Source: Mobula hypostoma
Taxonomy: Eukaryota
Length of the DNA stretch: 64,000 bases
Assembly (NCBI RefSeq): GCF_963921235.1
Contig: NC_086108.1
Span: forward strand, 868,001 to 932,000
Direction: 5' to 3'
Under the pieces are notes generated by a model. It was not told where the DNA came from. It saw only the letters and a list, made by a program, of their open reading frames with translations, and did not search any database. The position numbers and the translations under genes were made by a program. Below, piece after piece: positions 14,173 through 60,755 of this stretch (the stretch's first letter is position 1; every line of letters starts with the position of its first letter).

Positions 14173-14685
14173 GGCAAAGCGATTGCCTCAGAGCCTTGGC
14201 AGTCTATTTTTAAGCCAGGCATGGATTTTTGGTAATAACTGTTCCTGAACCTGGTAGTGTGGGACCTGAGGCTCATTGTGGTGCGTGAAGTTATGCACAC
14301 TGGTTCAGGAGCCTGATGGTTGTGGGGTAATAACTGTTCCCGAACCTGGTGGTGTGGGACCTTAGGCTGCTCTACCGCCTGCCCGATGCATGGTTTGAAA
14401 TTTTGGGGTCATTCCTGAGTTTGGCTGCAGGAAAGTGAATCTCAGTGTTCTATATGTTGATATATATACACTTTCATAATAAGATTTACATTGAACTTTC
14501 ATGATGGGTGCTATGTGGTGGCGGTGCTCTGTCGATGATCTCCTCTCAAATACTTAGCGCCCAGCCAAGATCAGTCCACAATTTATTAGGTTTTTCTTTT
14601 AGGGAGTTTGCTGTCCTCAAACAGGTCACAACAATAATTGCGTAATTCCCGTGATATGGAAATATACCATGGTCAGATTAGAGAC

Positions 14686-15030
14686 TTCAGATGCGGGAAT
14701 CTGGAGCAACACACAATGTGTTGGAGGAACGCAGCAGGTCGAGCATAATCGGGAGGAAAGGAATTATTTTCTTTCTTGGTTTTGTGGCTGGCTGGAAAAG
14801 AAAAATTTCAGTTCTATACGTTGATAATAAATGAATCGCTGAACCTTTTTGAATTTTTGTTTTTTTTTGGTCGGGACCCCTGCCTTCAAGACTATAAGAA
14901 TGGAAAACATCGTCTCGGCCCGAAACGTCAACCGTTTGCTCTTTTCCATATATGCTGCTTGACCTGGTGAGTTCCTCCACCATTTTATGTTTGTTGATTG
15001 GATTTCCAACATCTGCAAATTTTCTCGTTT
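14686..15030. mobile_element. Penelope terminal-repeat-derived fold-back element (inverted arms) upstream of the promoter
   Basis: The left arm (CAGATGCGGGAATCTGGAGCAACACACAATGTGTTGGAGGAACGCAGCAGG) is the reverse complement of the right arm (GTCTCGGCCCGAAACGTC...CCTGGTGAGTTCCTCCACCATTTTATG...TTTCCAACATCTGCA). Both match the 3' end of the Penelope element at 47729-47859. Confidence 0.75.
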
Positions 15031-32592: not shown

Positions 32593-32736
32593 AACACGAG
32601 AAAATCGGCAGATGCTGGAAATTCAGGTAACACACACAAAATGCTGGTGGAACGCAGCAGGCCAGGCAGCATCTCTAGGAAGAAGTACAGTCGGCATTTT
32701 GGGCTGAGACCCACCAGCATTTTGTGTGGGTGTTGC
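32593..32736 (-). mobile_element. Short Penelope terminal-repeat insertion with 13 bp TSD
   Basis: TTGATAAAACCTT flanks both sides (32580-32592 and 32737-32749). The insert is the reverse complement of the Penelope 3' end plus a short inverted arm. Confidence 0.8.
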
Positions 32737-33689
32737 TTGATAAAACCTTGCCTCGGCACCATCCTCTGACAGCATCGAAGGGGAGAGAGAGGTCATTCAA
32801 GTGAAGGGACAGTCCTTCAGGAACAGCAAGTGAGGGGGGAGAGAGAGAGAGAGGGAGAGACCATCACATGCAAACGCCTTCTCTGGCAGCAGCGAGCAAG
32901 AGGCGATGGCACTGAACACTTGCTCGCCTTCTGCAGTCGCCCTGGTGTTTTCAATCTTCCTCGCCGCATTAATCGGTAAGAAATGGAGTCAAACATGGGC
33001 TTGTGCCCGGCTTGCAAGCTTCTCGGCTTTTAGAAGGCCACTTGTCTCCTGGCACCCACTTGGAGACAGCAAAGCGCTAGATCATTCAATTGGCCCCAAA
33101 AAAAAACACCATCAGACTGTAGATCACAGGCTCCAACAGTTCCAGAGCCACATTTGAAAGAAAAAGAAGTGAAAGAAGCAGTTTCTTGGGCCATCTTGAA
33201 GATGTTGATCATGTTACATTGTTCACTAGTGCCATCCCAGGCATTTAAAGCTACTGACCATCTCCACTAATGTGGACTATGCACATTCACGATCCCTCTG
33301 CAGTGGTTTGCTACACAAATACAGTGGCTGGATAGGTCCCAAAAGTGGATGAAGCTGAGCTGATTTTAGTTTCCTGAAGTCGACAGAAGAGCTGCAGTAT
33401 TATCATCAGAGGGTGGAAGGCTGGGAGATGTTGAGTCAGATGCTGTGCCTCCAGCTGGAAAGTGAATGTGTGATGGAGGACAGTCTGCGTGAATATCAGT
33501 GCTGAAAGGGAGCTGTTTGCAGTGACCCAGTTGCCTTGACTGATGACACTTCATTGAAGTGGAGTTCAGTAGCTTGGGGAAGAGGGCTTCTTATTGTGAT
33601 GGAACAGTTCCAAGAGACTGACTTCAAGAATAGCAGGAGAAGAGTGTGGGATCGAGGGCTTTGTATATCTGTATACAAAAGAGGAATGC

Positions 33690-34345: not shown

Positions 34346-35383
34346 TGCGTTTACAGAACCCATCTCAGGCCATCTGTATCAGTTCAGAGCTATTCCACTA
34401 ATTTCCCCTGTAACCTTAAAAGATTAAATATTGGCTTTAATTGTCTCACGTACATCGAAACATTAATAGTAAAGTGTGTCTTTTACGACAACAGCCAACA
34501 CAGTCACAGGATTGTGCCTACCATTAACTGAGGAGTCTGTGGACCCCAGGTTGGGAACCCCTGCTTTAGAGAAAACACAAACATCCTGCTCACTAAAAAT
34601 GACCTTGTCGGAAAGCGCTGCTTATTCAACAGGGTGAGACCTCGTCTTCTGTGGAGTGACAAGATGCGCAGCACATCGAGAAGTGCCATTTGCACAACAC
34701 AGAGATGCAGAGAAGCACACACAAAATGCTAGGGTAACTCAACAGGTCAGACAGCTTGTATGGATAGAAATAGTCGACATTTCAGGCCGAGAGTTTGAGG
34801 GTGCAAACATAATGAATCCAGGAGATATCTAAGCAACACACACCAAATGTTGGAGGGTTCAGCAGGTAAGGCAGCATCTATGAAGGGGAATAAACAGTGG
34901 ATGTTTTGGGTTAAGACCCTTCATCAGGACAATTTCTAAAATTGGCAGCAGATAAGTATTTTAAGGAATTATCTTCTGAAGAAATGGATGATTTTATCTG
35001 AAGGAACTTGGAGATATTTCAAGCACTAGTTTTTAATCTTTAAATAGAAATTATTCACCAAATATAACAAGGTAAACATTTATACATATTCAAGGTGTGA
35101 AAGCAAATAGCATCTAGCAGTTCAGCCAGTAATTTGTACGAGTTTATTTGTAGAGTTGTAAAGGCAAATAAAGCTATTAATGAACAAACGTGTTGAAATT
35201 TTTGGCACATTCGGCCTACTGTGTCTGGGCCAGCTGAAGGAAAGCAATCCAGCTGAATTCCACCTTCCAGGTCAACAGTCTTGTTGGCTCCTGTGACTCC
35301 AATTGATGCAAATACCTTCCAGAATTTCAGTCTGCATTTCCTTATTTAGAACATGCAACCAACCTTTATTTTCCTGTTTCCAG

Positions 35384-39659: not shown

Positions 39660-39970
39660 TCTTGTATTCCACCTGGGTAGCCTCTGATGGCATGAGTATC
39701 AATTTCTCCTTCTGGTGAACAAATACCCACTGCCCCCTGACCTTTCCCATCCACCCAGTTTCACCTATCACCTTCCAGCCAGCCTCCTTCCCCTCCCTCC
39801 ACCTTTTTATTTTGGTGTCTTCCCCCCTTCCTTCTCAGTCCAGAAGAAAGGTCTTGGCCCGAAATGTCGACTGTTTACTCTTTTTCCATAGGTGCTGCCT
39901 GATCTACTGAGTTTCTTCAGCATTTTATGTATGTAGTTTTTGATTTCCAGCATCTGCAGACTTGCTTGTG
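39660..39970 (+). mobile_element. Penelope 3' fragment with terminal repeat
   Basis: CTTGTATTCCACCTGGGTAGCCTC...GATGGCATGAGTATCAATTTCTCC followed by the terminal repeat. Confidence 0.75.
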
Positions 39971-42058: not shown

Positions 42059-42201
42059 ATTAGCAGAGAAGAAAGCATCGATTGGCTACACTTACGACGA
42101 CTGCTCAGTAACTACAGATGAGAAGGCAGAGGAGAAAGATGAAGACTACGAGGATGACTCAGATGAGAAGAGTGATTCCGATGAAGAGATACCAGACATA
42201 G
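42059..42201 (+). CDS. CLASRP: CLASRP coding exon 6 (LAEKKASIGYTYDDCSVTTDEKAEEKDEDYEDDSDEKSDSDEEIPDI), acidic region
   Basis: AACAG acceptor, GTGAGC donor, 143 nt, frame-compatible; carries the conserved KASIGYTY motif. Confidence 0.96.
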
Positions 42202-42877
42202 GTGAGCTGTAAATTATACACAGGAGATTCTGCAGATGCTGGAAATCCGGAACAACACCCTCACAAAATGCTGAAGGAACTCAGCAGGTCTGGCAACATC
42301 TATGGAGAGGAGTAAACAGTCAAGGTTTTGGGCCAAGACCGTAAACATCGACTGTTTATTCCTCTTCACGGATGCTGCATGACCTGCAGAGTCCTTCCAG
42401 TAGTTTATGTGTTGAGCTGTGCAAGAGGAAACTCGCTGGCTGGAACAGCAGGGGGTGCTGTTGAATGTTTAAACTGAAAGGGAATGAGTTAGGTAGCAGC
42501 TGAAAATATTCTCAGGGTTGGTTAATACCTAACAACAAAGGTTGCATTCCTAACCCGAGGGTTTTCCCGTGGTTCAGCATTTGGCTTTCAGAAGGATTAA
42601 GAATGAGGAAGTTAATAAAGTGGTAAAGTAAATGCCCAGGGAAATTGTTGTTGTTGTTGTAGTACTAGTAGTAGTAGGGAGTAGTCTGTTATGCTGTTGG
42701 CGTTTAGGGCAGCAATGAAGATCTTTCATCTCTGCCGGTGTTCAGGGCTTCCTTCATCATGTCAGTAGCTTCAGCTTGGCTTCCACCACTGTCAGTCACG
42801 CAAGTCCTGGGTGGAGTCTCGGGAATACCGTTGTACTCATGTAGAAGGATTCTTCATTGCTGTTTCTCTAATAGTTT

Positions 42878-44951
42878 CTGGAGGCCCAATCATTGGTAGG
42901 AGCAGCGCACTTGGACGAGGTTACTCGCAGGTCGGCGAAGCTCATACAAAAGGAGAAATTTGCAGTTGTTCAGACATTCTGGAGGCCCAGTCAGCGGCGG
43001 GAGCAGAGCACTGTGAATTAAATAAAAGTACAGAAGGGACAAGCAGGACGGCCATTGTGGGAGTAGGCCAGAGGTGAGAGTAGGAGGGTCAGGCTTTGAC
43101 TCGAGGCTTCTACAAGGAGAGGCTGAGGCCGAAAGAAACAGGTTAGAAGGGTAGTTTTCCCTTTCATTATTTGGTCTTGCTTGCCCATTGTACAATGCAG
43201 ACAGGATGGCAGATATGGCAGTGGAATGCTCCTCCTGTAGGATGTGGGAATGGTGGCATTCCTGATGACTACACTTGCAGGAAGTGCAGCCAGCTCCAGC
43301 TCTTGAAAGGCCGCATTAAGGAGCTGGAGCTAGTGTTGAACGAACTAAGGATGATCTGGCAGGCAGAACAATTGATAGGTAAAACTTTTGAGTTGGTGGT
43401 TACACCCTGAGTGCAGAATTCAGAGAGAACACCGAGAGAGGTAAGGGGAGAAAGGAGCCAGTGCAGGATTCCCCTGTGGCCTTTCCCCTCAGCAACAGGT
43501 ATACCCCTTTCGATACTGATGAGGGGGATGACCTCTCTGGCAAGGCAGCAGCAGCCAGACCAATAGCATTGTGATCAGCTCTGAGTTCCAGAAGGGTAGG
43601 GTAAGGTCAGGTGGAGCATTAGTCATATGGGACTTGATAGTTAAGGAGACAGATAGAGGATTTTGTGGCAGCAAAAGAGATGCCAGGATAGTGTGTTGCC
43701 TCCCTGATGCCAGGATCCAGAATGTCTCTGAGCAGTTGCAGAATATTCTTGAAGGGGAGGGTGAGCAGCCAGAGGTTGTGGTACCGATGACACAGACAGG
43801 AGAGAGGTAGAGGTCCTGTGCAGTAAGTTTAGGGATTTTGGAAGGGGGCTGATCTTCTGAAACAATTTTGGGCAGCACATTTTCCAATTTAATTGCCATT
43901 ATTTTAGAAAGAATTTTAAAATCTACATCCAACAAAGACCTGTAGATGGTTTGTACTCTGTGCGGAGGTTGACCAGTGGTGTTCCGCAGGAATCTGTTCT
44001 GGGACAACTCCTCGTTGTGATTTTTATAAATGAACTGGATGAGGAAGTAGAAGGGTGGGTTAATAAGCTTGCTGATGATACAAAAGTTGGGGGTGTTATG
44101 TATAGTCTGGAGGGTTGTCAGAGGTTACAGTGGGACACCGATAGGATGCAGAACTGGGCTGAGGAGTGGCAGATGGACTTCAACCCAGATAAGTGTGAAG
44201 TGGTTCATTTTGGTAGGTCAAGTTTGAAGACAGAATATAAATGGTAAAACTCTTGGCAGTGTGGAGGATTAGCGAGATCTTGGGTCTGTGTCCATAGGAC
44301 ACTCAGACCTGGTGTGCAGGTTAAGAAGATATATGGTGTGATGGCCTTCATGAACCGTAGGATTGAGTTCAAGAGCCGTGAGGTAATGGTACAGCTATAT
44401 AAGACCTTGGTTAGACCCCACTTAGAGTACTGTGTTCAGTTCTGGTCGCCTCACTACAGGAAGGATGTGGATACTATAGAGGGAATGCAGAGGAATTTTA
44501 CAGGGATATTGCCTGGATTGGAGAGCGTGTCTTTTGAGGATAGGTCGAGTGAACTTGGCCTTTTCTCCTTGGAGCAATAGAGGATGAGAGGTGACCTGAA
44601 GAGGTGTGTAAGATGATTGAGAGGCATTGATCCTGTGGATAGCCAGAGGCTTTTTCCCAGGAGTGAAGTGAGGGGGCATAGTTTTAAGATGCTTGGAAGA
44701 AGGTACAAGGGGGATGTCAGAGGAAAGTTTTTCACACAGAGGCGGGTGTGTGTTATGCACTGCCAGGGACGGTGATGGAGGCAGATACAATAGGGTCTTT
44801 TAAGAAACTCTTAGATAGATACATGGAGCTTAGAAAAATAGAGGGCTATTAGTAGGGAAATTCTAGGCAGTTTCTGGAGTAGGTGACATGGTTGGCACAA
44901 CATTGTGGGCTGAAGGGCCTGTAATGTGCTGTAGATTTCTATATTCTATGT
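42878..44951 (+). mobile_element. Internally deleted CR1 (5' UTR, ORF1, filler, ORF2 3' third, tail) with 11 bp TSD
   Basis: TCTAATAGTTT (42867-42877) and TCTAACAGTTT (44952-44962) flank it. ORF1 reads YTCRKCSQLQLLKGRIKELEL and VCCLPDARIQNVSEQL. ORF2 reads SGVPQESVLG...LADDTKVGG and LVRPHLEYCVQFWSP. Confidence 0.85.
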
Positions 44952-45604
44952 TCTAACAGTTTTGTTTGACCAGTCAAGGTTGTTAACCCTGAGCTACACC
45001 CTCGAATCTGGAGGACTGGTGGGCCACTCTTGGTCTGGTCTCTACCCTTTTACCAGTTTAGCATGGGTGACCCTACTAAGAGCCAAAGCATAAACTCCTG
45101 ACTCCAGCCAACGTAGCTGCTTGGGTCATTGAGGCACGCAAGCCTCCAGACCTAAAGTCAAGTTCGGTTTTTCTTGGAGGACTGGGAAATCGATGTTGGT
45201 ATTAATTTCCATTTGTACCTCAGTCGCAGTGGCTTGTGTAGAAGTGGTTTGGAATTATCATTGCTATTGGTTTACAGGTTTCCCCCGCCATCCGAAGGTA
45301 GAGCATTCCTATGAAACGGTTCGTAAGCCAGAATGTCGTAAAGGGAAGAAGCAATTACCACTTATTTATATGGGAAAAATTTGTGAGCGTTCGCAGACCC
45401 AAAAATAACCTACCAAATCATGCCAAATAACACATAAAACCTAAAATAACAGTAACGTATAGTAAAAGCAGGAATGGTATGATAAATACACAGCCTATCT
45501 AAAGCAGAAATACTTCTCTGCAATCATTGCCTGCACTGTTCTCTGTAGCAAAAATCTCATGCAAGCGCTCTCGGCAAAAACACTCTCTCCAGTAACCTTA
45601 TTAT

Positions 45605-47436
45605 TCTGCTCTCCACTCCCTCCGCACTAATCCTAACCTTATTATTAAACCCGCTGATAAGGGGGATGCTGTTGTAGTCTGGCGTACTGACCTCTACCTT
45701 GCCGAGGCACAGCGACAACTCGCGGATACCTCCTCTTATTTACCCCTCGATCGTGACCCCACTAAGGAGCACCAGGCCATTGTCTCCCACACCATCACCG
45801 ACTTTATCCGCTCAGGGGATCTCCCATCCACTGCTACCAACCTTATAGTTCCCACACCTCGCACTTCCCGTTTCTACCTCCTACCCAAGATCCACAAACC
45901 TGCCTGTCCTGGCCGACCTATTGTCTCAGCTTGCTCCTGCCCCACCAAACTCGTTTCTGCATACCTCGACACGGTTTTATCCCCCCTTGGTCAATCCCTT
46001 CCTACCTATGTTCTCACGCTCTTAAACTTTTCGATGATTTTAAGTTCCCTGGCCCCCACCGCTTTATTTTCAGCATGGATGCCCAGTCCCCATATACTTC
46101 CATCCCCCATCAGGAAGGTCTCGAAGCTCTCCGCTTCTTTTTGGATTCCAGACCTAATCAGTTCCCCTCTACCACCACTCTGCTCCGTCTAGCGGAATTA
46201 GTCCTTACTCTTAATAATTTCTCCTTTGGCTCCTCCCACTTCCTCCAAACTAAAGGTGTAGCTATGGGCACCCGTATGGGTCCTAGCTATGCCTGCCTTT
46301 TTGTTGACTTTGTGGAACAATCTTTGTTCCGTGCCTATTCTGGTATCTGTCCCCCACTTTTCCTTCGCTACGTCGACGACTGCATTGGCGCTGCTTCCTG
46401 CACGCATGCAGAGCTCGTTGACTTTATTAACTTTGCCTCCAACTTTCACCCTGCCCTCAAGTTTACCTGGTCCATTTCCGACATCTCCCTCCCCTTTCTA
46501 GATCTTTCTGTCTCTGTCTCTGGAGACAGCTTATCCACTGATGTCTACTATAAGCCTACTGACTCTCACAGCTATCTGGACTATTCCTCTTCTCACCCTG
46601 TCTCTTGCAAAAACGCCATCCCCTTCTCGCAATTCCTCTGTCTCCGCTGCATCTGCTCTCAGGATGAGACTTTTCATTCTAGGACGGGGGAGATGTCCTC
46701 CTTTTTTAAAGAAAGGGGCTTCCCTTCCTCCACTATCAACTCTGCTCTTAAACGCATCTCCCCTATTTCACGTACATCTGTTCTCACTCCATCCTCCCGC
46801 CACCCCACTAGGAATAGGGTTCCCCTGGTCCTCACCTACCACCCCACCAGCCTCCGGGTCCAACATATTATTCTCCGTAACTTCCGCCACCTCCAACGGA
46901 ATCCCACCACTAAGCACATCTTTCCCTCCCCTCCTCTCTCTGCATTCCGCAGGGATCGCTCCCTACACAACTCCCTTGTCCATTCGTCCCCCCCATCCCT
47001 CCCCACTGATCTCCCTCCTGGCACTTATCCGTGTAAGCGGAACAAGTGCTACACATGCCCTTACACTTCCTCCCTTACCACCATTCAGGGCCCCAAACAG
47101 TCCTTACAGGTGAGGCTACGCTTCACCTGTGAGTCGGCTGGGGTGATATACTGCGTCCGGTGCTCCCGATGTGGCCTTTTATATATTGGTGAGACCCGAC
47201 GCAGACTGGGAGACCGCTTTGCTGAACACCTACGCTCTGTCTGCCAGAGAAAGCAGGATCTCCCAGTGGCCACACATTTTAATTCCACATCCCATTCCCA
47301 TTCTGACATGTCTATCCATGGCCTCCTCTACTGTAAAGATGAAGCCATACTCAGGTTGGAGGAACAACACCTTATATTCCGTCTGGGTAGCCTCCAACCT
47401 GATGGCATGAACATCGACTTCTCTAACTTCCGCTAA
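45605..47436 (+). pseudogene. Penelope RT / GIY-YIG endonuclease, 5'-truncated, with one frameshift near 46013
   Basis: The upstream frame gives IIKPADKG and FYLLPKIHK...GRPIVS. The downstream frame gives GVAMGTRMGPSYA, FLRYVDDC, a Cys linker CKRNKCYTC and GVIYCVRCSRCGLLYIGETRRRLGDRFAEH, with a stop at 47436. The start of the called ORF at 45931 is out-of-frame read-in. Confidence 0.92.
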
Positions 47437-47728
47437 TGCCCCACCTCCCCCTTGTACCCCATCTGTTACTTATTTTTATACACACATTCTTTCTCTCAAT
47501 CTCCTTTTTCTCCCTCTGTCCCTCTGAATATACCCTTTGCCCATCCTCTGGGTCCCCCCCCCTTGTCTTTCTTCCCGGACCTCCTGTCCCATGATCCTTT
47601 CGTATCCCCTTTTGCCTATCACCTGTCCAGCTCTTGGCTCTATCCCTCCCCCTCCTGTCTTCTCCTATCATTTTGGATCCCCCCTCCCCCTCCAACTTTC
47701 AAATCCCTTACTCACTCTTCCTTCAGTT

Positions 47729-47764
47729 AGTCCTGACGAAGGGTCTCGGCCTGAAACATCGACT
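47729..47764 (+). ncRNA. Minimal type I hammerhead ribozyme motif in the Penelope terminal repeat
   Basis: AGUC CUGACGA AGGGUCUCGGCCU GAAAC AUC GACU gives helix I AGUC/GACU, core CUGANGA, helix II AGG/CCU (or GGG/CCU), GAAA, an NUH triplet (AUC) and a vestigial helix III. Activity is untested. Confidence 0.7.
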
Positions 47765-48155
47765 GCACCTCTTCCTAGAGATGCTGCCTGGCCTGCTGCG
47801 TTCACCAGCAACTTTGATGTGTGTTGCTTGAATTTCCAGCATCTGCAGAATTCCTGTTGTCTCCAGTAACCTTTAAGCTATGAAGCTGCCAAATCATACC
47901 AAATAATGTATAAAAATACACAGCCTATATGAAGTAGAAATAATGTATGTACAGTGTAGTATCACTTACTGGAATCGGGAAGACGGTGCCGAGCACACTG
48001 ATGATGGTGTTAGGCTGAGTCGATGGAGATTGGGGTGGTGCAGTGGCCCCCACCCTCTGGGCCGGGGAACGATACTGTTCCGCGAAGCATGTAGCGGTAC
48101 AGCGGTAGCCGGGACGCACCCAGAACATCTTTAAGAAAAAAGCCGAAATAAACAA

Positions 48156-48423
48156 GTCATAGTCATACTTTATTGATCCCGGGGGAAATTGGTTTTCGTT
48201 ACAGTTGCACCACAAATAATAAATAGTAATAAAACCATAAATAGTTAAATAATAATATGTAAATTATGCCAGGAGGTAAGTCCAGGACCAGCCTATTGGC
48301 TCAGGGTGTCTGACCCTCCAAGGGAGGAGTTGTAAAGTTTGGTGGCCAGGGGCAGGAATAACTTCCTTTGACGCTCTGTGTTGCATCTCAGTGGAATGAG
48401 TCTCTGGCTGAATGTACTCCTGT
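48156..48423 (-). mobile_element. LINE 3' fragment (Rex/L2-like) inserted in the Tigger
   Basis: A GTCATAGTCATACTTTATTGATCCC tail-type start interrupts the left arm of an internal palindrome. Confidence 0.65.
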
Positions 48424-51400
48424 ATGTAAATGCCGGCCCAGATCAGAGGCGACGCAATCGGCAATCGCCTCTGATCTGAGCCGACAGTTATGTGCCGGGC
48501 AGCACCTGATTAATTAGGTTGTTTATTTCAGCTTTTTTCCTTAAAGATTTGCTGGGTGCGTCCCGGCTACCGCTGCATTCTCCGCAAATCGGTATCTGTC
48601 GGCGGCCCGGGGGTTGGGGCGGTGGGACACTGAGGTGTCGTCTGTTTCCATCAGGTCCGGCAGGTCATCTTCTTCTATGACTGCCTGCCTCGATGTTGAA
48701 GGTCGAGGTTCGTCGTCTGCTGTGGCTGATTGGAAGGCTTGCTTGACTGCTTAGCCTCGCGCATTTTTCTATCATAAGCACTCAAACCATCTTGCAAATA
48801 TGCCCTAAACCTACGTAGCCTTTCAAAATTAAAATCGTACTTTTCTGCATTTATTGCAGCGAAAATCTCACGCAGTTGCTTCACATTCAGTTCCTGGATG
48901 ACTTCACTTTCGGTCAGTTCGCTACTGCATTCGGTTTTGATTGTTAACCTTTCCTCTTCCAATTGCATCAGCTCTTCATCTATCAGTTCTTGGTCATGGG
49001 ATGCCAAAACCTCTTCAACATCATCTTCGTCAACTTCCACAAGCCAAACTCACTTTGTCCTTACTTCGTTCACCACAATCGAATGTCTAGTTTTACGCTA
49101 AGTGTAACACCCTTATGAGCTCTTTTAGGCTTTTCCAATACCTTAGAACTCATCTTGTAAACGGATGCTCACAGGCACGTGTTTAAGCACTACTGGCTAG
49201 AATGCAGTTCCGAATCCGGGGGAGAGTGGCTGCTCGGGGCGTGCACTGCCTTTTATCGCGCACTGCTTTTTTCGCATGCTGCCTTTTTTCGTAACAGTGA
49301 AAGCACCTTCTGTTAGCGAAAACAGGGAACTAATGTAGGTCTTTCGTAACAGTGAGGTTTCGTAAAGCGAACGTTCGAAAAGCGAGGAACACCTGTATTA
49401 TCACCACATGTACGGAGATACAGTGAAAAGCTTGTCTTGCATACTGTTCATACAGATCAAGTCATTACACAGTGCAGTGAGGTAGAACAAGGTCAGACAA
49501 TAACAATGCAGAATGAAGTGTAAAAGCTACTGAAAAAGTGCAGTGCAGGTAAGCGATAAACTGCAAGATCATTACAAGGTCGATGGTGAGGCCAAGAGTC
49601 CATCTTCTATTGCAAGAAATTCATTCCAGAGATTGATAACAGTGGGGTAGAATCTGTCTTTGAGCCTGGTGGAATGTGCTTTCAGGCTTTTGTTTCTCCT
49701 GTCTGATGGGAGAGGGGAGAAGACAAAATGTCTGGAGTGGGTGTGGTATTTAATTATGTTGGTTGCTTTACTGAGGCAGTGAAAAGTGTAGACAGTCTAA
49801 ATGGGGGGTATTACAATGCAACTAGCTATTTGCATTGGAGGTGTTCTGGACCGTCTTATTGTATAAGAGTCTGATAAGACCATAAGACATTGGAACAGAG
49901 TTGGGCCATTCAGCCCATCGAGTCAGCTCTGCAATTTCATCAAGGCTAATCCATTTCCCCCTCAACCCATTCTCTTGCTTTCTCCCCATAACCTTTCACT
50001 CTCTGACCAATCAAGAACCTATCAAACTCTGCCTTAAGTACACCCAATGACCTGGCCTCACAGCCGAAGCGCAGATTCACCACTGTCTAGCGAAAGAAAT
50101 TCCTCATCTCCTTACTAAATGGATGTCTCTCTATTCTGAGGCTTTGCCCTCTGGTCCTAGACTCTTCCACCACAGGATACATCCTCTCTGCATCCACTCT
50201 ATCCAGGCCTTTCAATATTCGATAGGTTTCAATGAGGTTCTCCACTCATTCTTCAGAATACAACAAGTAAAGGGCCAGAGCCTTCAGTCACTCATACAAT
50301 AAGTCTTACGTTCTTGAATTCATTCTCCTGAACCCTCTCCAATGTTGGCGCATCCTTTCTTAAATATGGGCCTGAAAATGCTCACAATACTCACCAGAAC
50401 TTTGAAAAACCTCAGCATTACATCCTTGCTTTTATACTCTAGTCTGCTCAAAATGAATACTAACATTGCATCTGCCTCCTCACCACCAACTCATCCTGTA
50501 AATTAATCTTTAGGGAATTCTGCACGAGGACTTGTAAGTCCCTTTGCACCTAGGATTTTTGAATTTTGTCCCTGTTTAGATAATAGTCTGTGCTTTTATT
50601 CCTTCTACCAAAGTGCATGACCATACACTTACCGACACTGTATTCCATCTGGCAGTTCTTTGCCCATTCTCCTAATTTGTCTAAGTCCTTCTGCAGGCTG
50701 CCTGCTTCCTCAATCTACCTGCCCCTCCACTTATCTTTGTATTTCTGCGCAAATGGCCACAAAGCCATCAATTCCATCATCCAAATTATTGAGGTATAAT
50801 GTAAAAAGAAGGGGTCCTGACACAGACCCCTGTGGAACACCGTTAGTTCCCGACGGCTCTTTATTCCCACTCTTTGCTTCCTGCCAATCAGCCACGACTT
50901 TATCCGTGCTAGAATCTTTCCAGTAATACCATGGGGTCTTACCTTGTTCAGCTGCCTCATGTGTAGCACCTTGTCAAAGGCCTTCTGATAGAGAAGACTG
51001 ATGCAAAATACTTATTAATTTCATTCTTCATTTCCTTGTCTCCCATTACTACATCTCCAGTGTCATTTTCCTTCAGTCCAATATCTACTCTCTCTTCTCT
51101 TTTACTCTGTATATATCTGAAAAACTTTTAGTATCCTCTTTGATATTATTGGCTAGCTTACCTTTATATTTCATCATTTCCCTCCTTATGACTTTTTTGG
51201 TTGCCCTCTGTCAGTTGACTTCTCACTAATTTTTGCTCTATTATATGTCTTCTCTTTTTCTTTTATGTTGCCTTTGACTTCCCTTGTCAACCATGGTTGT
51301 GTCATCCTGCCTTTAGAATACTACTACTGTGGGATATATCTATCCTGCGCCCTCCGAATTGCTCCCAGAAATTCCAGCTGTTGCTGCTCTGCCGTCATCC

Positions 51401-51710
51401 CTGTCGGTGTTCTTTTCCAATCAATTCTGGCCAACTCCTCTCTCTTGCCTTCATATTTCCCTTTACTCCACTGTAAAACTGACTTTAACGTCTCCCTCTG
51501 AAGCTGCTGGGTGAATTCTATCATATTATGATCACTGTCTCCTCAGGGTTCCTTTACCATAAGCTCCCTAATCAAATCTGGTTCATTAGGGTTAGGGTTA
51601 ATGCATTAAACAACGCTGTAATGCGTTACACAACACCCAGTCCAGAATAGCTGATCCTCCAGTGGGCTCAGCCACAAGCTGCTCTAAAAAGCCATCTCGT
51701 AGACATTCTA

Positions 51711-54495
51711 GAACATAGAATAGTACAGCACAGTACAGGCCCTTCGGCCCACAATGTTGTGCCGACCCTCAAACCCTGCCTCCCATATAACCCCCCCTCT
51801 TAAATGCCTCCGTATACCTGTCTAGTAGTCTCTTAAACTTCACTAGTGTATCTGCCACCACCACTGACTCAGGCAGTGCATTCCACGCACCAACCACTCT
51901 CTGAGTAAAAAACCTTCCTCCAATATTCCGCTTGAGTTTCCCACCCCTTACCTTAAAGCCATGTCCTCTTGTATTGAGCAGTGGTGCCCTGGGGAAGAGG
52001 CGCTGGCTATCCACTCTATCTATTCCTCTTATTATCTTGTACACCTCTATCATGTCTCCTCTCATCCTCCTTCTCTCCAAAGAGTAAAGCCCTAGCTCCC
52101 TTAATCTCTGATCATAATGCATACTTTCTAAACCAGGCAGCATCCTGGTAAATCTCCTCTGTACCCTTTCCAATGCTTCCACATCGTTCCTATAGTGAGG
52201 CAACCAGGACTAGACACAGTACTCCAAGTGTGGCCTAACCAGAGTTTTACAGAGCTGCATCATTACATCACGACTCTTAAACTCTATTCTTCGACTTATG
52301 AAAGCGAATACCCCGTAAGCTTTCTTAACTACCCTATCTACCTGTGAGGCAACTTTCAGGGATCTGTGGACATTTACCCCCAGATCCCTCTGCTCCTCCA
52401 CACTACCAAGTATCCTGCCATTTACTTTGTACTCTACCTTGGAGTTTGTCCTTCCAAAGTGTACCACCTCACACTTCTCCAGGTTGAACTCCATCTGCCA
52501 CTTCTCAGCCCACTTCTGCATCTATCAATGTCTCTCTGCAATCCTTGACAATCCTCTACACTATCTACAACACCACCAACCTTTGTGTCGTCTGCAAACT
52601 TGCCAACCCACCCTTCTACCCCCACATCCAGGTCGTTAATAAAAATCACGAAAAGTAGAGGTCCCAGAACAGATCCTTGTGGGACACCACTAGTCAAAAT
52701 CCTCCAATCTGAATGTACTCCCTCCACCACCACCCTCTGCCTTCTGCAGGCAAGCCAATTTTGAATCCACCTGGCCAAACTTCTCCGGATCCCCTGCCTT
52801 CTGACTTTCTGAATAAGTCTACCGTGTGGAACCTTGTCAAATGCCTTACTAAAATCCATATAGATCACATCCACTGCACTACCCTCAACTATATGCCTGG
52901 TCACCTCCTCAAAGAACTCTATCAGGCTTGTTAGACACAATCTGCCCTTCACAAAGCCATGCTGACTGTCCCTGATCAGACCATGATTCTCTAAATGCCC
53001 ATAGATCCTATCGCTAAGAATCTTTTCCAACAGCTTTCCCACCACAGACGTAAGGCTCACTGGTCTATAATTACCCAGACTATCCCTACTACCTTTTTTG
53101 AACAAGGGGACAACATTCGCCTCCCTCTAATCCTCCGGTTCCATTCCCGTGGACAACGAGGGCATAAAGATCCTAGCCAGGGGCTGAGCATCTCTTCCCT
53201 CGCCTCGTGGAGCAGCCTGGGGAATACTCCGTCAGGCCCCGGGGACTTATCCGCCCTAATGTATTTGAACAACTCCAACTCCTCCTCTCCCTTAATATCA
53301 ACATGCTCCAGAACATCAACCTCACTCATATTGTCCTCACCATCATCAAGTTCCTTCTCATTGGTGAATACTGAAGAGAAGTATTCATTGAGGACCTCGC
53401 TCACTTCCATAGCCTCCAGGCACATCTTACCACCTTTATCTCTAATCGGTCCTACCTTCACTCCTGTCATCCTTTTGTTCTTCACATAATTGAAGAATGC
53501 CTTGGGGTTTTCCTTTACCCTTCTCGCCAAGGCCTTCTCATGCCCCCTTCTTGCTCTTCTCAGCCCCTTCTTAAGCTCCTTTCTTGCTTCCCTATATTCC
53601 TCAATAGACCCATCTGATCCTTGCTTCCTAAACCTCTTCTTCCACCTGACTAGATTTTCTACCTCACTTGTCACCCATGGTTCCTTCACCCTACCATTCT
53701 TTATCTTCCTCACCGGGACAAATTTATCCCTAACATCCTGCAAGAGATCTCTAAACATCGACCACATGTCCATAGTACATTTCCCTGCAAAAACATCATC
53801 CCAATTCACACCTGCAAGTTCTAGCCTTATAGCCTCATAATTTGCCCTGTCCCCAATTAAAAATTTTCCTGCCCTCTCTGATTCTATCCTTTTCCATGAT
53901 AATGCTAAAGGCCAGGGAGCGGTGGTCACTGTCCCCCAGATGCTCACCCACTGAGAGATCTGTGACCTGACTCGGTTCATTACCTAGTACTAGATCTAGT
54001 ATGGCATTCCCCTAGTCGGCCTGTCCACATACTGTGACAGAAATCTGTTCTGGACACTCTTAACAAACTCTGCCCCATCTAAACCCTTGGAACTAATCAG
54101 GTGCCAATCAATATTAGGGAAGTTAAAGTCACCCATGATAACAACCCTATTATTTTTGCACCTTTCCAAAATCTGCCTCCCAATTTACTTCTCGGTATCT
54201 CTGCTGCTACCAGGGAGTCTATAGAGTACCCCCAACAGTGTAACTGCTCCCGTCCTGTTCCTGAGTTCCACCCATACTGACTCAAAAGAGGATCCTTCTA
54301 CATTACCCACCCTTTCTGTAGCTGTAATAGTATCCCTGACCAGTAATGCCACCCCTCCTCCCCTTTTTCCCCCCTCTCTATTCCTTTTAAAGCACTGAAA
54401 TCCAGGAATATTGAGAATCCATTCCTGCCCTGGTGCCAACCAAGTCTCTGTAAGGGCCACTACATCATAATTCCATGTATGTGTCCAAGCTCTGC
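51711..54495 (-). mobile_element. Young CR1 ORF2 (endonuclease plus RT), 5'-truncated, few frameshifts
   Basis: [65 protein letters not shown] and LVRPHLEYCV. A possible short TSD ATTCTA is present. Confidence 0.95.
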
Positions 54496-54663
54496 AAATT
54501 CTACATATTCTGTCTCTTGGGATCCAGCACCAACCTGATTTTCCCCAATCTACCTGCATATTGAAATTCCCTGTGACTATTATAACATTGCCCTTTTGAC
54601 GTACCTTTTCTATCTCCAGTTGTAATTTGTAGCCCACATTCTGGCTACTGTTTGGAAGTCTGT

Positions 54664-54838
54664 TTGTTGTTCGTCCATCGTTGATGTCAATGAGGACCTC
54701 GACACCATAATGACGGTGTCGAGACTAGCGCGTGATTTGGATTTAAGTGAGGGAGAGTTGCGCAGCGTCAGCCTCACTCTCTCTTCCCAATTCCCATCTG
54801 GGTCCAGTGGCAAGACAGAGTCTAGACGGCTGGAGATG
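54664..54838 (-). mobile_element. RTE LINE terminal fragment (175 bp) with 6 bp TSD
   Basis: GTCTGT flanks both sides (54658-54663 and 54839-54844). It has a (TTG)n terminal repeat and a 9 bp stem-loop at 54698-54723. Confidence 0.7.
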
Positions 54839-56008
54839 GTCTGTATATAACTCCCATCAAGGTCTTTTTACCCTTGCAGTTGCCTTAGCCCAACCCACAA
54901 TGATTCAACACCTTCCGATCCTATGTCACTTCTTTGTAATGATTTGATTTTATTTTTTGCCAACAGAACTACGCCACTCCCTTTCAATACATCGGATGTT
55001 AAGCTCCCAACTATAATGTTCTTTCAGCCACAATTCAGTGATGCCCACAATGTCATACCTGCTAAGCTCTAGCTGCGCTACAAAATCATCTACTTTATTC
55101 CATATACTGTGTGCATTCAAATATAACATCTTCAGTCCTGTACCTGTCACCTTTTTTGATTTTGTCCCCCTTTTACACTGGAATTCATCCCACTGTCTGC
55201 AATTTTGCCCCATCATCTTCCTGTCCTTCCTGACAGTCTCATTACACACTGCCTCCACTTGTAAATCAACAGGCCTATTTCATTCCTCTGCCAAATTAGT
55301 TTAAACCTTCTCCAACAGCTCTATCCTGCAAGGATATTAGTCCCACTCATGGGCAGTTGTAACCCGTCACTTCTGTATAGATCATATCTTTCCCAGAAGG
55401 GATCACAATGATCCAGAAATCTGAACCTCTGACCCCTGCACCAGTTCCTCAGCCACACGTTCATCTGCCAAATCATCCTGTTCTTACCATCACTGGCACA
55501 TGCCACAGGCAGCAATCCAGAGATTACTACCCGGGCGGTTCTGTTTTTCAGCTTTCTACCTAGCTGCCTAAAATCTCTCATCAGGACCTCCTCATATTTC
55601 CTACTTAAGTCATTGGTGTCGATATGTACCAAAATTTCTGGCTGCTCACCATCTCCCTTTAGAATGCTGTGGACCCGATCCAAGATGTTCCTCACCTTGA
55701 CACCCGAGAGGCAACTTACCATCTGTTGACTATCATCCGCGCCTGCAGAATCTCGTGTCTATTCCTCTAACTGGAATCCCCTGTAACTACTGCATTCTTC
55801 TTCTCCCCCTTCCCTTCTGAGCCACTGTGCGGGGCTCAATGCCAGAGACCCAGTCGCTGCAGCTTCCCTCACCTTTGTTAGGTCGTCCACCTCAACAGTA
55901 TCCAAAATGGTGTACTTATTATTGAGGGGAATGGCCACGGGTACTCTGCACTGGCTGGCTGATTCCCTTCCCTCTCCTGACAGTCATCCATTTACCTTAC
56001 AACTTAGG

Positions 56009-56284
56009 TGTGGCGCGTGGCCAAGTGGTTAAGGCGTTGGTCTGAAGGTCGTGGGTTCAAGTCTCGGCCAAGGCAGCGTGTTGTGTTCTTGAGCAAGGCA
56101 CTTAACCACACACTGCTCCAATCCACCCAGCTGAAAATGGGTACCGGCAAAATGCTGGGGGTTAACCTCGCGATAGTCTGGCGGGGGTGTGGGGAGTCTC
56201 GTACTCTCAGTCACTTCACGCCATGAAAACTGGCATAAGCACAGGCCTGATGAGCCTGTAAGGCTCGGGACAGACTTTAAATTG
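56009..56284 (+). mobile_element. tRNA-derived SINE with 9 bp TSD
   Basis: Box A TGGCCAAGTGG, box B GGTTCAAGTCT, central GTGTTCTTGAGCAAGGCACTTAACC. CAACTTAGG occurs at 56000-56008 and 56285-56293. Confidence 0.85.
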
Positions 56285-56467
56285 CAACTTAGGGGTGATT
56301 GCCTCTCAGTAACTTCTATCTATCAACTCTTCAGTTTCCCTTATGATCCGAAGGTGATTGACTTGGAGCTCCAGTTCCTTAACACTTTCTTTGTGGAGCT
56401 GCAGCTCAGTGCACCTGGTGCAGATGTAGTTTTCCAGAAGATCCGGAGGTTGTCCAGAATTTCCACA

Positions 56468-58440
56468 GCTGTTGTAAATCTAGTCAAGGAGAAAAGAAGA
56501 GCTTACAAAAGGTTCAAAAAACTGGGTAATGATAGGAATCTAGAAGGTTATAAGGCTAGCAGGAAGGAGTTTAAGAATGAAATTAGGAGAGCCAGAAAGG
56601 GCCATGAGAAGGCCTTGGTGGACAGGATTAAGGAAAACCCCAAGGCATTCTACAAGTACGTGAAGAGCAAGAGGATAAGACGTGACACAATAGGACTAAT
56701 CAAATGTGACAGTGGAAAAGTGTGTATGGAACTGGAGGAAATAGCGGAGGTACTTAACGAATACTTTGCTTCAGTATTCACTATGGAGAAGGATCTTGGC
56801 GATTGTAAGGATGACTTGCAGTGGACTGAAAAGCTTGAGCATGTAGATATTAAGAAAGAGGATGTGCTGGAGCTTTTGGAAAGCATCAAGTTGGATAAGT
56901 CATCGGGACCGAACGGGTTATACCTCAGGATACTGTGGGAGGCGAAGGAGGAGATTGCTGAGCCTCTGGCAATGATCTTTGCATCATCAATGAGGACAGG
57001 AGAGGTTCTGGAGGATTGGAGGGTTGCGGATTTTGTTCCCTTATTCAAGAAAGGGAGTAGAGATAGCCCTGGAAATTATAACCAGTAAATCTTACTTCAG
57101 TGGTTGGTAAGTTGATGGAGAAGATCCTGAGAGGCAGGATTTATGAACATTTGGAGAGGCATAATATGATTAGGAACAGTCAGCACGGCTTTGTCAAAGG
57201 CAAGTTGTGCCTTAACGAGCCTGATTGAAGTTTTTGAGGATGTGACTAACACATTGATGAAGGTAGGGCCGCAGATGTAGTGTATATGGATTTCAGCAAG
57301 GCATTTGAGAAGGTACCCCATGCAAGGCTTATTGAGAAACTAAGGAGGCATGGGATCCAAGGGGACATTGCTTTGTGGATCCAGAACTGGCTTGCCCACA
57401 GAAAGCAAAGAGTGGTTGTAGATGGGTCATAATCTGCATGGAGGCCGGTGACCAGTGGTGTACCTCAGGGATCTGTTCTGGGATCTTTACTCTTTGTGAT
57501 TTTTATAAATGACCTGGATGAGGAAGTGGAGGGATAGGTTAGTAAGTTTGCTGATGACACAAAGGTTGGGGTGTTGTGGATAGTGTGGAGGGCTGTCAGA
57601 GGTTACAGCGGGACATTGATAGGATGCAAAACTGGGCTGAGAAGTGACAGATGGAGTTCAACCCAGATATAGTGAGGTGGTTCATTTTGGTAGGTCAAAT
57701 ATGATATCAGAATATAGTATTAATGGTAAGACTCTTGGCAGTGTGGAGGATCAGAGGGATTTTGGGGTCTGAGTCCAAGGCTGCTGTGCAAGTTGACTTT
57801 GTGGTTCAGAAAGCATATGGTGCATTGGTCTTCATCAATCGGGGGATTGAGTTTAGGAGCGGAGAGGTAATGTTGCAGCTACATAGGACCCTGGTCAGAC
57901 CCCACTTGGAGTACTGTGCTCAATTCTGGTCGCCTCACTACAGGAAGGATGTGGAAACCATAGAGAGGGTGCAGAGGAGATTTACAAGGATGTTTTGGAT
58001 TGGGGGGCATGCCTTATCGGAATAGGTTGAGTGAACTCAGCCTTTTCTCCTTGGAGTGACAGAGGATGAGAGGTGACCTGATAGAGGTGTATAAGATGAT
58101 GAGAGGCATTGATCATGTGGATAGTCAGAGGCTTTTCCCCAGGGCTGAAATGGCTAGCATGAGAGGGCATAGTTTTAAGGTGCTCGGAAGTAGGTACAGA
58201 GGAGATGTCAGAGGTAAGTTTTTTACGCAGAGAGTGGTGAGTGCGTGGAATGGGCTGCCGGCGGCGGTGGTGGAGACGGAAATGATGGGGTCTTTTAAGG
58301 GACTCTTGGATGGCTACATGGAGCTTAGAAAAATAGAGGGCTATGGGTAAAGCCTAGGTAGTTCTTAGGTAGGGACATGTTCGGCACAACTTTGTAGGCT
58401 GAAGGGCCTGAATTGTGCTGTAGGTTTTCTTTGTTTCTAT
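56468..58440 (+). mobile_element. CR1 ORF2, 5'-truncated
   Basis: IKENPKAFYKYVKSKR...LNEYFASVFT...[13 protein letters not shown] and LVRPHLEYCAQFWSPHYRKD, ending in a TTTCTTTGTTTCTAT tail. Confidence 0.93.
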
Positions 58441-59769
58441 CTCACACAAAGAACACAACACAGCCATTCTCACTGCTCGAACTATGCACTAGCAGATGAA
58501 GAAAAAGAAGAAACTCACTGGATACTTAGCTCATCCAAGCCTGTTCTCACTGAAGTTTAATAAGCCAAAGCCTCCCCACTCTAACTCTGGTCTACTCCAA
58601 CAATGGTCGCGCCGCGTGTCCCTGCCTTACTTTTATCGGCCCTTGATAATGAATTGCGACTGCGCTGCTGATGAGAAGGAAAATCCGGTGAAAGCTCCAC
58701 ACCTCTTGCTCCCGGATCTGTGTGAGGCCTCCTCCTCCTCCTGCAACTGTACCGCCGCGAAGAAAATAACAGTGGGATAGTATCTGTCCTTGAGCCTGGT
58801 GGTATGAAAAGATGAGCTGCTCCTTCGAGCTGGAGTCTAAAATACATGTTGTGTATGCAAAAATAAAAAGCTGCCTCTCCCAACTCCTCCCCTTTCCAGG
58901 CCCATTGAAGGGTCTGGGTCTGAAACATGGGCTCTTAATTCCTCTCCATAGATGCTGCTAAGTTCCTCCAGCATTTTGTGTACGTTACTCTGGTTAATCA
59001 TTAAGATGGAAAGCCTCAGTAGCTCTTTGCAATAACAGAGCATCTGTACCATAAACGTGAGTGCTGAGTTGCTAATTAACCTACAATGAGTTTCAAGGTG
59101 AAGCGTATGTTCCATTTAATTTTATCAAATATCATGTGAGGTTGATAAGCTGAGCCAAGATTATTGCTTTCGGGTGTTACATTGGTAGGTTTGTTTTGAA
59201 GTTTTGTTGTGTAGGGAATCTCAGCAGGCAGTTTGAGAGCTAGAGTTGCATTTATGTAGCACCATTCACATCTCTTTAAACACATCCCAGACTGCTTTAC
59301 AGCCACTGAAACACTTGTAATTGAACAAAATGAAAGATTTTCCATTTTGGTCATGTTTGAGAGGGAGAAGTGCAGTTTTTCACATACCACCTCCCTGATG
59401 GGTGTAATGAGAAGAGGGCATACCTTGAACAATGAGAGTCGTTCACAATGGATGTCACCTCCAATGAGGACATCTTCAAAAGGTGATGCCTCGAGTGGGG
59501 GGGGGCGGGAGATTGGGGCTGAGAGAAAAAAAATGGATCGTCCGTGAAAAAATGGTGGAGCTGAATCGATTGGCCAAATGGCCTGATTCTGCTCCTATAT
59601 CATAGAGTTTAGCCCTTTTCAATTATGTTGTCTTTTATTCTTCTAAACTCCAGATAGAATAAACCAATCTCATCTCATGAGACCACCTTCTGAGCTCTAA
59701 ATTCAGATTCTTACAGATACATGTAGAGATGGCCCAAGTTCTGATTTATTCAAAGGACCCGCAATAAAT

Positions 59770-60485
59770 ATACAGAATTATGAGGGGTATAGATAAGGTA
59801 TATGCAAGCAGGCTTCTTCCATCAAGGTCAGGTGGAACTACAATGCGAGGTTATAGGTTAAGGGTGAAAGGTGTAAAAGTTTAAGGGAATATGAGGGGAA
59901 ACTTCTTCACTCAGAGGGTGGTGAGAGTGTGGAATGAGCTGCCAGCGCAAGTGGTGCATGCGAGCTCGACTTCAACGTTTAATATGTTTAGATACTTCAT
60001 GGATGGGAGGGGTATGGAGGTCTGTGGTTCAGGTACAGGTTGATGGGAGTAGGCAGTTTAAATGGTTCAGCATGGACTAGATGGGCCAAAAAGCCTGTTT
60101 CTGTACTGTACTTCTCTATGACTTTAAGTAATAGGAACAGAATCGGGTCATTCAGCCCATCGAGTCTGCTCTACTGTCCGATCATGACTGATATATTATC
60201 CCTCTCAACCCCAGTCTCCTGCCTTCTCCCCATAAGCTGTGATGTCCTTACTAATGAAAACCTATCAGTCTCTGCTTTAAGTATCCCAATGACTTGGCCT
60301 CCGCAGCCATTGGTGCCACTGAATTCCACTGATTCACCACCTTATGGCTGGAGAAATTCCTTCTCATCTCTGCTCTAAAGGGATGTCCTTGTATTCTGAG
60401 GCTGTGTCTTCTGGTCCTGGACTCCCCTACTATTGGAAACATCCTCTCTACATCTACTCTATCTAGACCTTTCAATATTCAATGA
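59770..60485. mobile_element. Two CR1 3' fragments, tail-to-tail (+ 59770-60122, - 60130-60485)
   Basis: AACTTCTTCACTCAGAGGGTGGTGAGAGTGTGGAATGAGCTGCC on the plus strand; KGLDRVDVERMFPIVGESRTRRHSLRI on the minus strand. Confidence 0.8.
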
Positions 60486-60658
60486 AGTGTTTTGACAATG
60501 TGAATGTTCTTTTTGCATAGAAATGTTTGGAAAGAATTGTGGATGTCAGAATGTACGGTGATCTACTGTATGCTTTTCTGGAAATGAAACAATTGTCGGC
60601 TGCTAACTTAATTGATTAACACTTGGAGGTTTCTGAATGTTTATGTCTTGCCTTTCAG

Positions 60659-60755
60659 ATGTTGAAGTGGATGTTGATGAGTTAAACACTGAGCAGACCT
60701 TGGAGCTGAACAAACTCGCTACCACTTACGGGATGTCTGAAGGTGACTTTGTCAG
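60659..60755 (+). CDS. CLASRP: CLASRP coding exon 7 (VEVDVDELNTEQTLELNKLATTYGMSEGDFV)
   Basis: TTTCAG acceptor, GTGAGG donor, 97 nt, frame-compatible across an 18,457 bp intron. Confidence 0.96.

What the first reader, a model, noticed from the sequence alone, without database searches (positions are those of the whole stretch)
47729..47764. Hammerhead ribozyme motif with an intact core, in sense orientation inside a CLASRP intron
Seen: AGUC-CUGACGA-AGGGUCUCGGCCU-GAAAC-AUC-GACU folds as a type I hammerhead, with helix I AGUC/GACU, CUGANGA, helix II, GAAA and an NUH site. Established: Penelope-like elements carry minimal hammerheads with a vestigial, palindromic helix III that generally cleave best as dimers. 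Inference: this is the only well-preserved copy in the window that keeps every core position, and it would be transcribed in the CLASRP pre-mRNA. The helix III palindrome ACGU has become ACAU, which may cripple dimeric cleavage.
Basis: partly seen in the sequence, partly recalled or inferred. Interest (0 to 1): 0.72.

Follow-up and report, generated by a model that had tools for sequence, protein, structure and literature searches.

The report
Retrotransposon hammerhead relic in ray intron
The small hammerhead-ribozyme motif is really there, but it is the ordinary tail of a broken Penelope-like jumping gene that landed in an intron of a ray's CLASRP gene, and it is likely inert because it has lost the tiny palindrome such motifs are reported to need for pairing with a partner copy.

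Summary
Observation confirmed. At 47729-47764 (+) lies a minimal type I hammerhead with all 11 unpaired or junction core positions intact. It is on the sense strand of the CLASRP intron 42202-60658. It is not a host feature: it is the 3' terminal repeat of a 5'-truncated, frameshifted Penelope-like element (RT plus GIY-YIG, Neptune/Nematis-type linker, 45600-47859). The element has a perfect 14-bp target-site duplication and interrupts a Tigger-like transposon. Related elements found by protein alone carry the same motif just behind their ORF (27 of 46 loci, covarying stems), so it is the class described in 2014. This copy differs at two closing pairs. Helix III reads ACAU where the family majority has ACGU. 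Position 10.1-11.1 is G-U, where all 27 relatives have C at 11.1. In its flanks the hammerhead fold has about zero predicted probability. Window copies decay no slower in the core than in the tail, and one intact copy among eight is expected by chance (0.67-0.78). Most likely an inactive passenger. Cleavage was not tested. The scan noted the same class before on other DNA. Low interest.

The parts
47729..47764 (+). Minimal type I hammerhead motif: helix I 47729-32/47761-64, core C3-A9 47733-39, bulged A 47740, helix II 47741-44/47749-52 (10.1-11.1 = G-U), G12-A15.1 47753-56, vestigial helix III 47756-59 (ACAU), C17 47760
45600..47859 (+). 5'-truncated Penelope-like retroelement copy that carries the motif in its only (3') terminal repeat
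   Evidence: bounded by the target-site duplication; family 3' end at 47855-47860 from loose ends
45600..47436 (+). Partial PLE ORF: DKG motif, RT (Pfam RVT_1, below cut-off), C-x4-C-x2-C linker, GIY-YIG endonuclease with CCHH; frameshift near 46010 and changes at near-invariant residues
   Evidence: motif definitions from PMC8557442 passages
47437..47859 (+). 3' untranslated region and pseudo-LTR: pyrimidine-rich stretch, hammerhead, and a tail running 99 nt past the predicted cut site
47714..47726 (+). Pyrimidine-rich upstream segment predicted to pair with 47733-47744 and bury the catalytic core
   Evidence: prediction only
45586..45599 (+). Target-site duplication, left copy (14 bp)
47860..47873 (+). 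Target-site duplication, right copy (14 bp, identical)
42202..60658 (+). CLASRP intron between the 6th and 7th coding exons found (GT...AG, phase consistent)
48675..49049 (-). Tigger-like DNA transposon remnant; the PLE appears to interrupt this repeat
   Evidence: features score 0.94 to a Tigger-derived cluster, recognition below threshold, a lead; empty-site contigs joining at 47860 in X11
39837..39872 (+). Older sense copy of the motif in the preceding intron, core broken (U4), loop III AUGU; the only window copy that could complete all helices with the focal copy

Best explanation
The motif is the minimal hammerhead in the 3' pseudo-LTR of a dead, 5'-truncated Penelope-like retroelement that inserted into a CLASRP intron, and it is likely an inert passenger that would be transcribed with the pre-mRNA, spliced out and degraded without cutting. 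Shown: the element, its boundaries and target-site duplication, the intron position, the family-wide conservation of the motif, and the two departures of this copy (ACAU in helix III, G-U at 10.1-11.1). From the literature: in active tandem elements two such motifs pair through the palindrome and their helix I arms to form a dimer that cuts slowly, in one case only with the element's protein. Inferred: this copy was reverse-transcribed from an uncut RNA, since it runs 99 nt past the cut site. It then lost the palindrome by CpG decay and has no intact partner. It looks complete because it is fairly young and because U at 11.1 removed the CpG that destroyed G12 in 5 of 12 window copies.
For: 14-bp duplication flanking 45600-47859. 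ORF 93% identical over 82% of the query to a Mobula hypostoma predicted protein and about 50% to coral and mollusc elements. 27 of 46 related loci that reach the ORF end have the core within 400 nt downstream, all 27 with helix II of 3 bp or more, against 4 core-only matches and 0 with helices in 195,828 control bases. 154,185 contig pieces of run X1 lie on a 601-bp stretch, so the family is very abundant (not a copy number). Divergence in 8 window copies: core 10/80, stems 15/112, tail 29/246 at non-CpG sites. Chance that at least one of 8 keeps the core: 0.67-0.78. Sense 6, antisense 5 among the 11 copies inside the gene span. Predicted homodimer double-hammerhead energy -0.4 kcal/mol, against -9.5 with the majority letter at 16.2. 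Helix I and II pair probabilities 0.0 with 30-200 nt of flank. Single minimal motifs showed no cleavage and dimers low cleavage (PMC4209133). The Anolis PLE hammerhead cut only with protein and no RNA ends were found at its site (PMC11167929).
Against: No cleavage assay and no raw RNA reads were available, so inactivity is inferred. All 11 core positions are intact. Nearest-neighbour energies treat hammerhead junctions poorly: even the majority-letter dimer gets only +0.3 kcal/mol from helix III and lies far above an off-pathway dimer. Helix I is also poorly predicted in context for 10 of 11 relatives. U at 11.1 is the majority in close relatives in three of four runs, so it may be tolerated. 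The conservation test rests on only 8 copies. Presence of the same insertion in other species could not be shown or excluded (no contig spans the stretch).
Confidence: 0.88

Rival explanations
1. The copy is a conditional ribozyme that cuts in partnership. It could pair with transcripts of the abundant family or be folded by the element's protein. It could also act as the enzyme strand on the AUGU-type sense copy at 39837, whose loop is exactly complementary to ACAU, and cut the pre-mRNA after 39868. The cut would be incidental and probably harmless to splicing.
For: Core 11 of 11. With the 39837 copy all four helix III pairs and both helices I form (-7.0 kcal/mol, against -0.4 for the homodimer). 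Family sequence is abundant in a run guessed to be RNA (X9; RNA status not shown). Protein-assisted cleavage is reported for a PLE hammerhead (PMC11167929).
Against: Opening the two units from their local folds costs about 11-13 and 12-14 kcal/mol, and the off-pathway dimer is -25.4. The partner is 7.9 kb away in the previous intron. Even intact dimers cut slowly. G-U closes helix II. Introns cut by a hammerhead were reported to splice normally (passages citing Dye et al. in PMC2995048).
Confidence: 0.08
2. The host has domesticated the motif to regulate CLASRP pre-mRNA processing, like the conserved intronic type I hammerheads of amniotes (RECK and others).
For: Sense strand, intronic, core complete. 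A precedent exists in amniote introns (review passages, PMC6155905).
Against: It lacks a stable helix III and the long helix I of those ribozymes. It is still embedded in a recognisable insertion with a perfect duplication. The palindrome has decayed instead of being stabilised. One intact copy is expected by chance.
Confidence: 0.02
3. The match is a chance resemblance with no ribozyme ancestry.
For: No Rfam hit. The 36-mer is no more stable than shuffles.
Against: Strict descriptor 0 of 60 controls. Same position, core, bulged A and palindrome in relatives picked by protein alone, with compensatory changes in 7 of 8 pairs.
Confidence: 0.01

Closest known systems
Minimal hammerheads (min-HHR) of metazoan Penelope-like elements (Cervera and De la Pena 2014, PMC4209133; read: parts 1-2 of 4, from abstract to start of methods)
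   Same: Type I, 4-bp helix I, extra nucleotide between A9 and 10.1, palindromic 15.2-16.2 in the family, located in the pLTR, mostly single motifs from truncated copies.
   Different: This copy has ACAU in place of the palindrome and G-U in place of G10.1-C11.1. Helix II is 4 bp, not the 7-8 bp of the Schistosoma families. Sharks and rays are not named in the parts I read.
Dimer-cleaving PLE hammerheads (Lunse, Weinberg, Breaker, PMC5785218; not held, seen only as cited in PMC6765202 passages)
   Same: Very short palindromic stem III and type I fold that needs a partner.
   Different: No intact partner in the window, and the homodimer would carry two central mismatches.
Anolis Poseidon PAc hammerhead (Frangieh et al. 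2024, PMC11167929; read: passages and second part of main text)
   Same: Vertebrate PLE motif in the pLTR; insertions extend past the cut site, as expected if uncut RNA is the template.
   Different: PAc is Penelope/Poseidon clade; this element has the C-x4-C-x2-C linker of Neptune/Nematis. Protein assistance is untested here.
Neptune/Nematis-type EN+ PLEs (Craig et al. 2021, PMC8557442; passages)
   Same: C-terminal GIY-YIG with CCHH, CX2-5CxxC linker, DKG motif, target-site duplication, inverted truncated repeats in sister copies.
   Different: Neptune versus Nematis was not resolved (no reference sequences); the copy is truncated and frameshifted.
Conserved intronic hammerheads of amniotes (RECK, CTCL, DTNB; review passages, PMC6155905)
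   Same: Type I motif in an intron.
   Different: Those are canonical and conserved across species; this one is minimal, inside a recent insertion, with no conservation shown.
Non-LTR retrozymes (bioRxiv 10.64898/2026.07.22.740005; read: part 1 of 5 and passages)
   Same: Type I hammerhead related to PLE pLTRs; reported in one chondrichthyan genome.
   Different: Retrozymes are non-coding tandem repeats; this is a single motif behind an RT-EN ORF.

Membership tests
PLE minimal hammerhead | Core CUGANGA...GAAA and U-H at the cut site | tested here: met
PLE minimal hammerhead | Type I topology, short helix I, helix II | tested here: met
   4 bp + 4 bp; covariation in relatives (partly circular since rows came from descriptor hits)
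PLE minimal hammerhead | Extra nucleotide between A9 and 10.1 | tested here: met
   A47740; invariant in 12 of 12 rows
PLE minimal hammerhead | Located in the terminal repeat of an RT + GIY-YIG element | tested here: met
   297 nt after the ORF stop
PLE minimal hammerhead | Palindromic 15.2-16.2 (vestigial helix III) | tested here: not met
   This copy ACAU; met by its family (G majority at 47758; ACGU in 11 of 13 relatives of the same architecture). It is a decayed descendant, not an intact member.
PLE minimal hammerhead | G10.1-C11.1 pair | tested here: not met
   G-U here; C at 11.1 in 27 of 27 relatives and G-C in 11 of 11 aligned
PLE minimal hammerhead | Cleavage as a dimer | not testable with these tools
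   only energy estimates
Canonical type I hammerhead (Rfam hammerhead models) | Rfam score; stable helix III; loop-loop tertiary contacts | tested here: not met
   helix III absent in the monomer
EN+ Penelope-like element, Neptune/Nematis type | RT followed by GIY-YIG with CCHH and a CX2-5CxxC linker | tested here: met
   against definitions
Neptune clade specifically | RT phylogeny with reference elements | not tested
   no reference sequences in session
Domesticated intronic hammerhead | Orthologous position and core conserved across species | tested here: inconclusive
   contigs too fragmented to span the locus; no genome held
Non-LTR retrozyme | Non-coding tandem units each with a hammerhead | tested here: not met
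   no tandem array at the site; motif follows an ORF

The most novel reading that the evidence does not exclude
Two opposite CpG-decay products of the same palindrome (ACAU here, AUGU in the copy at 39837) complement each other. The core-intact copy would then act as the enzyme strand and cut CLASRP pre-mRNA 7.9 kb upstream, after position 39868: a ribozyme rebuilt from two dead retrotransposon tails in neighbouring introns.
Probability: 0.03. Interest if true: 0.7.

Novelty: new member of a known kind. Interest (0 to 1): 0.12.

Why it matters
As it stands it matters little: it is one more relic of a class described in 2014, in a genome full of them. Two small points could interest a specialist. 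First, a much-amplified ray subfamily seems to carry U at 11.1 where all 27 distant relatives have C, which fits the report that hammerhead cleavage is not needed for PLE insertion. Second, complementary decay products could in principle let dead copies in one pre-mRNA complete each other. If that were shown, PLE-rich genes of cartilaginous fish would be a natural test bed for long-range dimer ribozymes and for the first steps of intronic ribozyme domestication.

Tried and rejected
No whole genome is held, so genome-wide counts, orientation bias and orthology were not tested. Rfam gave nothing at gathering; at E up to 10 it gave two minus-strand chance matches, neither a hammerhead. A tail-pattern scan of metagenome contigs found 0 loci. 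Run search: no RNA holder listed, which is no evidence on expression; X9 is only guessed to be RNA. Laid contigs cannot show RNA ends; no place with many molecule ends was listed. The variant table was cut (40 rows shown, 72 hidden), so I did not use it to compare core and flank. I first took U at 47752 for a private CpG mutation; one search shows C at only 20%, 28% and 19% in X1, X5 and X9 (59% in X11), so I dropped that, with the caveat that laying favours contigs like the query. A 3' splice site at 47726 or 47730 that would free the core, as described for Drosophila Penelope, was considered. No GT..AG joint stood among the 15 joints shown (112 hidden), and cutting the upstream sequence in silico did not restore the fold, so it is unsupported. 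The 'competing hairpin' columns used wrong indices and were ignored; the hairpin is taken. The alternative helix II register (A-U, no bulge) scores worse (-4.6 vs -6.0). The Lunse paper is not held. A search for hammerhead ribozyme + Penelope-like + shark returned one review, where 'shark' refers to the name of the motif; this is a narrow search of an open-access library. PMC544870 and PMC2837043 passages gave no rate for G-U at 10.1-11.1, so its cost is not quantified. Supplements of the papers were not opened and may list shark or ray motifs.

Full report
Observation. In hammerhead numbering, C3-A9 is 47733-47739, an extra A sits at 47740, helix II is 47741-47744 with 47749-47752, G12-A15.1 is 47753-47756, U16.1 is 47759 and C17 is 47760. 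The isolated strand folds into helices I and II but is no more stable than its shuffles (z +0.68). Rfam finds nothing at gathering in the window and no hammerhead family up to E 10 around the site. A descriptor for minimal hammerheads finds exactly one hit in the window, this one. Sixty Markov controls of 49.8 kb gave 0.07 hits on average and none with the strict geometry. The motif is more than chance.

Host gene. A query from the first coding exon returns CLASRP proteins, and two exons match Pfam DRY_EERY. tblastn with a skate CLASRP places eight exons on + between 26271 and 62032. The flanking exons end at 42201 and begin at 60659, with GT and AG ends. The motif is therefore sense and intronic, 5.5 kb after the donor. 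Transcription follows from gene structure and was not observed: no RNA holder was listed.

What carries it. The motif lies 297 nt after the stop of an ORF with RT, a C-x4-C-x2-C linker and a GIY-YIG endonuclease with the CCHH residues. By the definitions in PMC8557442 (passages) this is an endonuclease-containing Penelope-like element of Neptune/Nematis type. The C-terminal 453 aa are 93% identical over 82% of their length to a Mobula hypostoma predicted protein, 76-86% to Hypanus proteins and about 50% to coral and mollusc ones, so the host is likely a ray. A perfect 14-bp duplication at 45586-45599 and 47860-47873 bounds the insertion. Loose ends of family contigs put the family's 3' end at 47855-47860, and 49 contigs of X11 join the flank across an empty site. 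The flank resembles a Tigger transposon (a lead). The copy is 5'-truncated, has no upstream pLTR, is frameshifted near 46010 and has changes at near-invariant residues.

The family motif is real. Eighty related loci were fetched by protein alone. Of these, 46 reach the ORF end with 200 nt or more downstream. Of those 46, 27 have the core sequence within 400 nt, found without asking for pairing, and all 27 have a helix II of at least 3 bp and C at 11.1. ORF interiors (195,828 bases) gave 4 core-only matches, none with helices. Several loci are near-duplicates, so these are not 27 independent families. Thirteen share this motif's architecture (bulged A, 4-nt loop III); 11 read ACGU and 2 AUGU. 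On 12 aligned motifs (this copy and 11 of the 18 descriptor hits) 93.5% of cells pair against 60.9% in shuffles (0 of 500), and 7 of 8 pairs change on both sides; this count is partly circular. In close relatives, loose ends pile up at 47729 and 47765, the two edges of helix I. This matches the min-HHR class of PMC4209133.

This copy. It departs at two pairs. At 16.2 it has A where G is 65-92% of depth in four runs; among 12 window copies the 15.2-16.2 dinucleotide is CG 1, CA 4, TG 6, CC 1, the pattern of CpG decay. At 11.1 it has U, giving G-U. Here C is only 19-28% in three runs and 59% in the fourth, so U is probably inherited from a subfamily master (inference; laying favours query-like contigs). 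U at 11.1 removes the CpG at G12, which became A in 5 of 12 copies. Among the 8 window copies covering the motif, non-CpG divergence is 10/80 in the core, 15/112 in the stems and 29/246 in the tail. At that decay rate at least one copy keeps all 11 core positions with probability 0.67-0.78. Inside the gene 6 copies are sense and 5 antisense. Nothing points to selection after insertion, on a small sample.

How it likely works. Published: single minimal motifs did not cut and dimers cut weakly; the Anolis motif cut only with its protein, was dispensable for insertion, and left no RNA ends in RNA-seq. Predicted here: a homodimer has two central mismatches in helix III (-0.4 kcal/mol against -9.5 with the majority letter). 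In natural flanks helices I and II have probability 0.0, because 47714-47726 pairs with the core. These energies are rough for hammerhead junctions, and helix I is poorly predicted for most relatives too. The element extends 99 nt beyond the cut site, so its template was uncut (inference). The likeliest fate is transcription, splicing out and decay. Even a cut need not matter: introns cleaved by a hammerhead were reported to splice normally, though a faster ribozyme blocked splicing (passages in PMC2995048).

The boldest reading left open. ACAU and AUGU are complementary. The sense copy at 39837 has AUGU and complete helix I arms, so with it all helices form (-7.0 kcal/mol) and the intact core would cut after 39868. 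But presenting the two units costs about 25 kcal/mol together, an off-pathway dimer is -25.4, and the partner is 7.9 kb away in another intron. I give it 3%.

Verdict. A new member, partly decayed, of a known kind. Earlier notes of this scan reached the same reading for other shark and ray introns; they are unchecked and I count them as no support. No note lies near this site. Interest 0.12.

Noticed in passing
window 1-14170: A 14-kb satellite of 43-nt units (335 copies, 88% matches) with extreme G skew upstream of the CLASRP coding exons.
   Followed up: no
window 42220-42420: An inverted pair of PLE tails joined inside the hammerhead begins 17 nt after the CLASRP splice donor at 42202; it would form a long hairpin next to the 5' splice site.
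   Followed up: partly
window 14677-15027, 32596-32744, 34684-34949, 42220-42413: Four tail copies have their 5' breakpoint at the same place, within the 5' strand of helix II (equivalent to 47741-47744); at least two are joined to an inverted tail, one is head-to-head with another copy and one is in tandem.
   Followed up: no
window 47752; U at hammerhead position 11.1 appears to be the majority in the closest, highly amplified subfamily, whereas 27 of 27 distant relatives have C.
   Followed up: partly
L044, L050, L053-L055, L060, L064, L065, L067, L071, L074, L075, L078, L080: A second group of related elements (32-39% identity) carries a hammerhead core 219-400 nt after the ORF, with no bulged A and a different sequence after the GAAA.
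   Followed up: no
window 48048-48619: An element with about 109-bp terminal inverted repeats (77%) and an inner 26-bp palindrome at 48427-48490, nested in the Tigger-like flank.
   Followed up: no
P0121, P0124: Ray gene models named as host-gene isoforms (a kinase-domain protein, a chitinase-domain protein) consist largely of this PLE ORF, probably annotation of intronic copies as exons.
   Followed up: no
window 47700-47730: Branch-point-like and pyrimidine-rich sequence with AG at 47725-47726 and 47729-47730 directly before helix I resembles a 3' splice site, as reported for Drosophila Penelope; no spliced joint was seen in the rows shown.
   Followed up: partly
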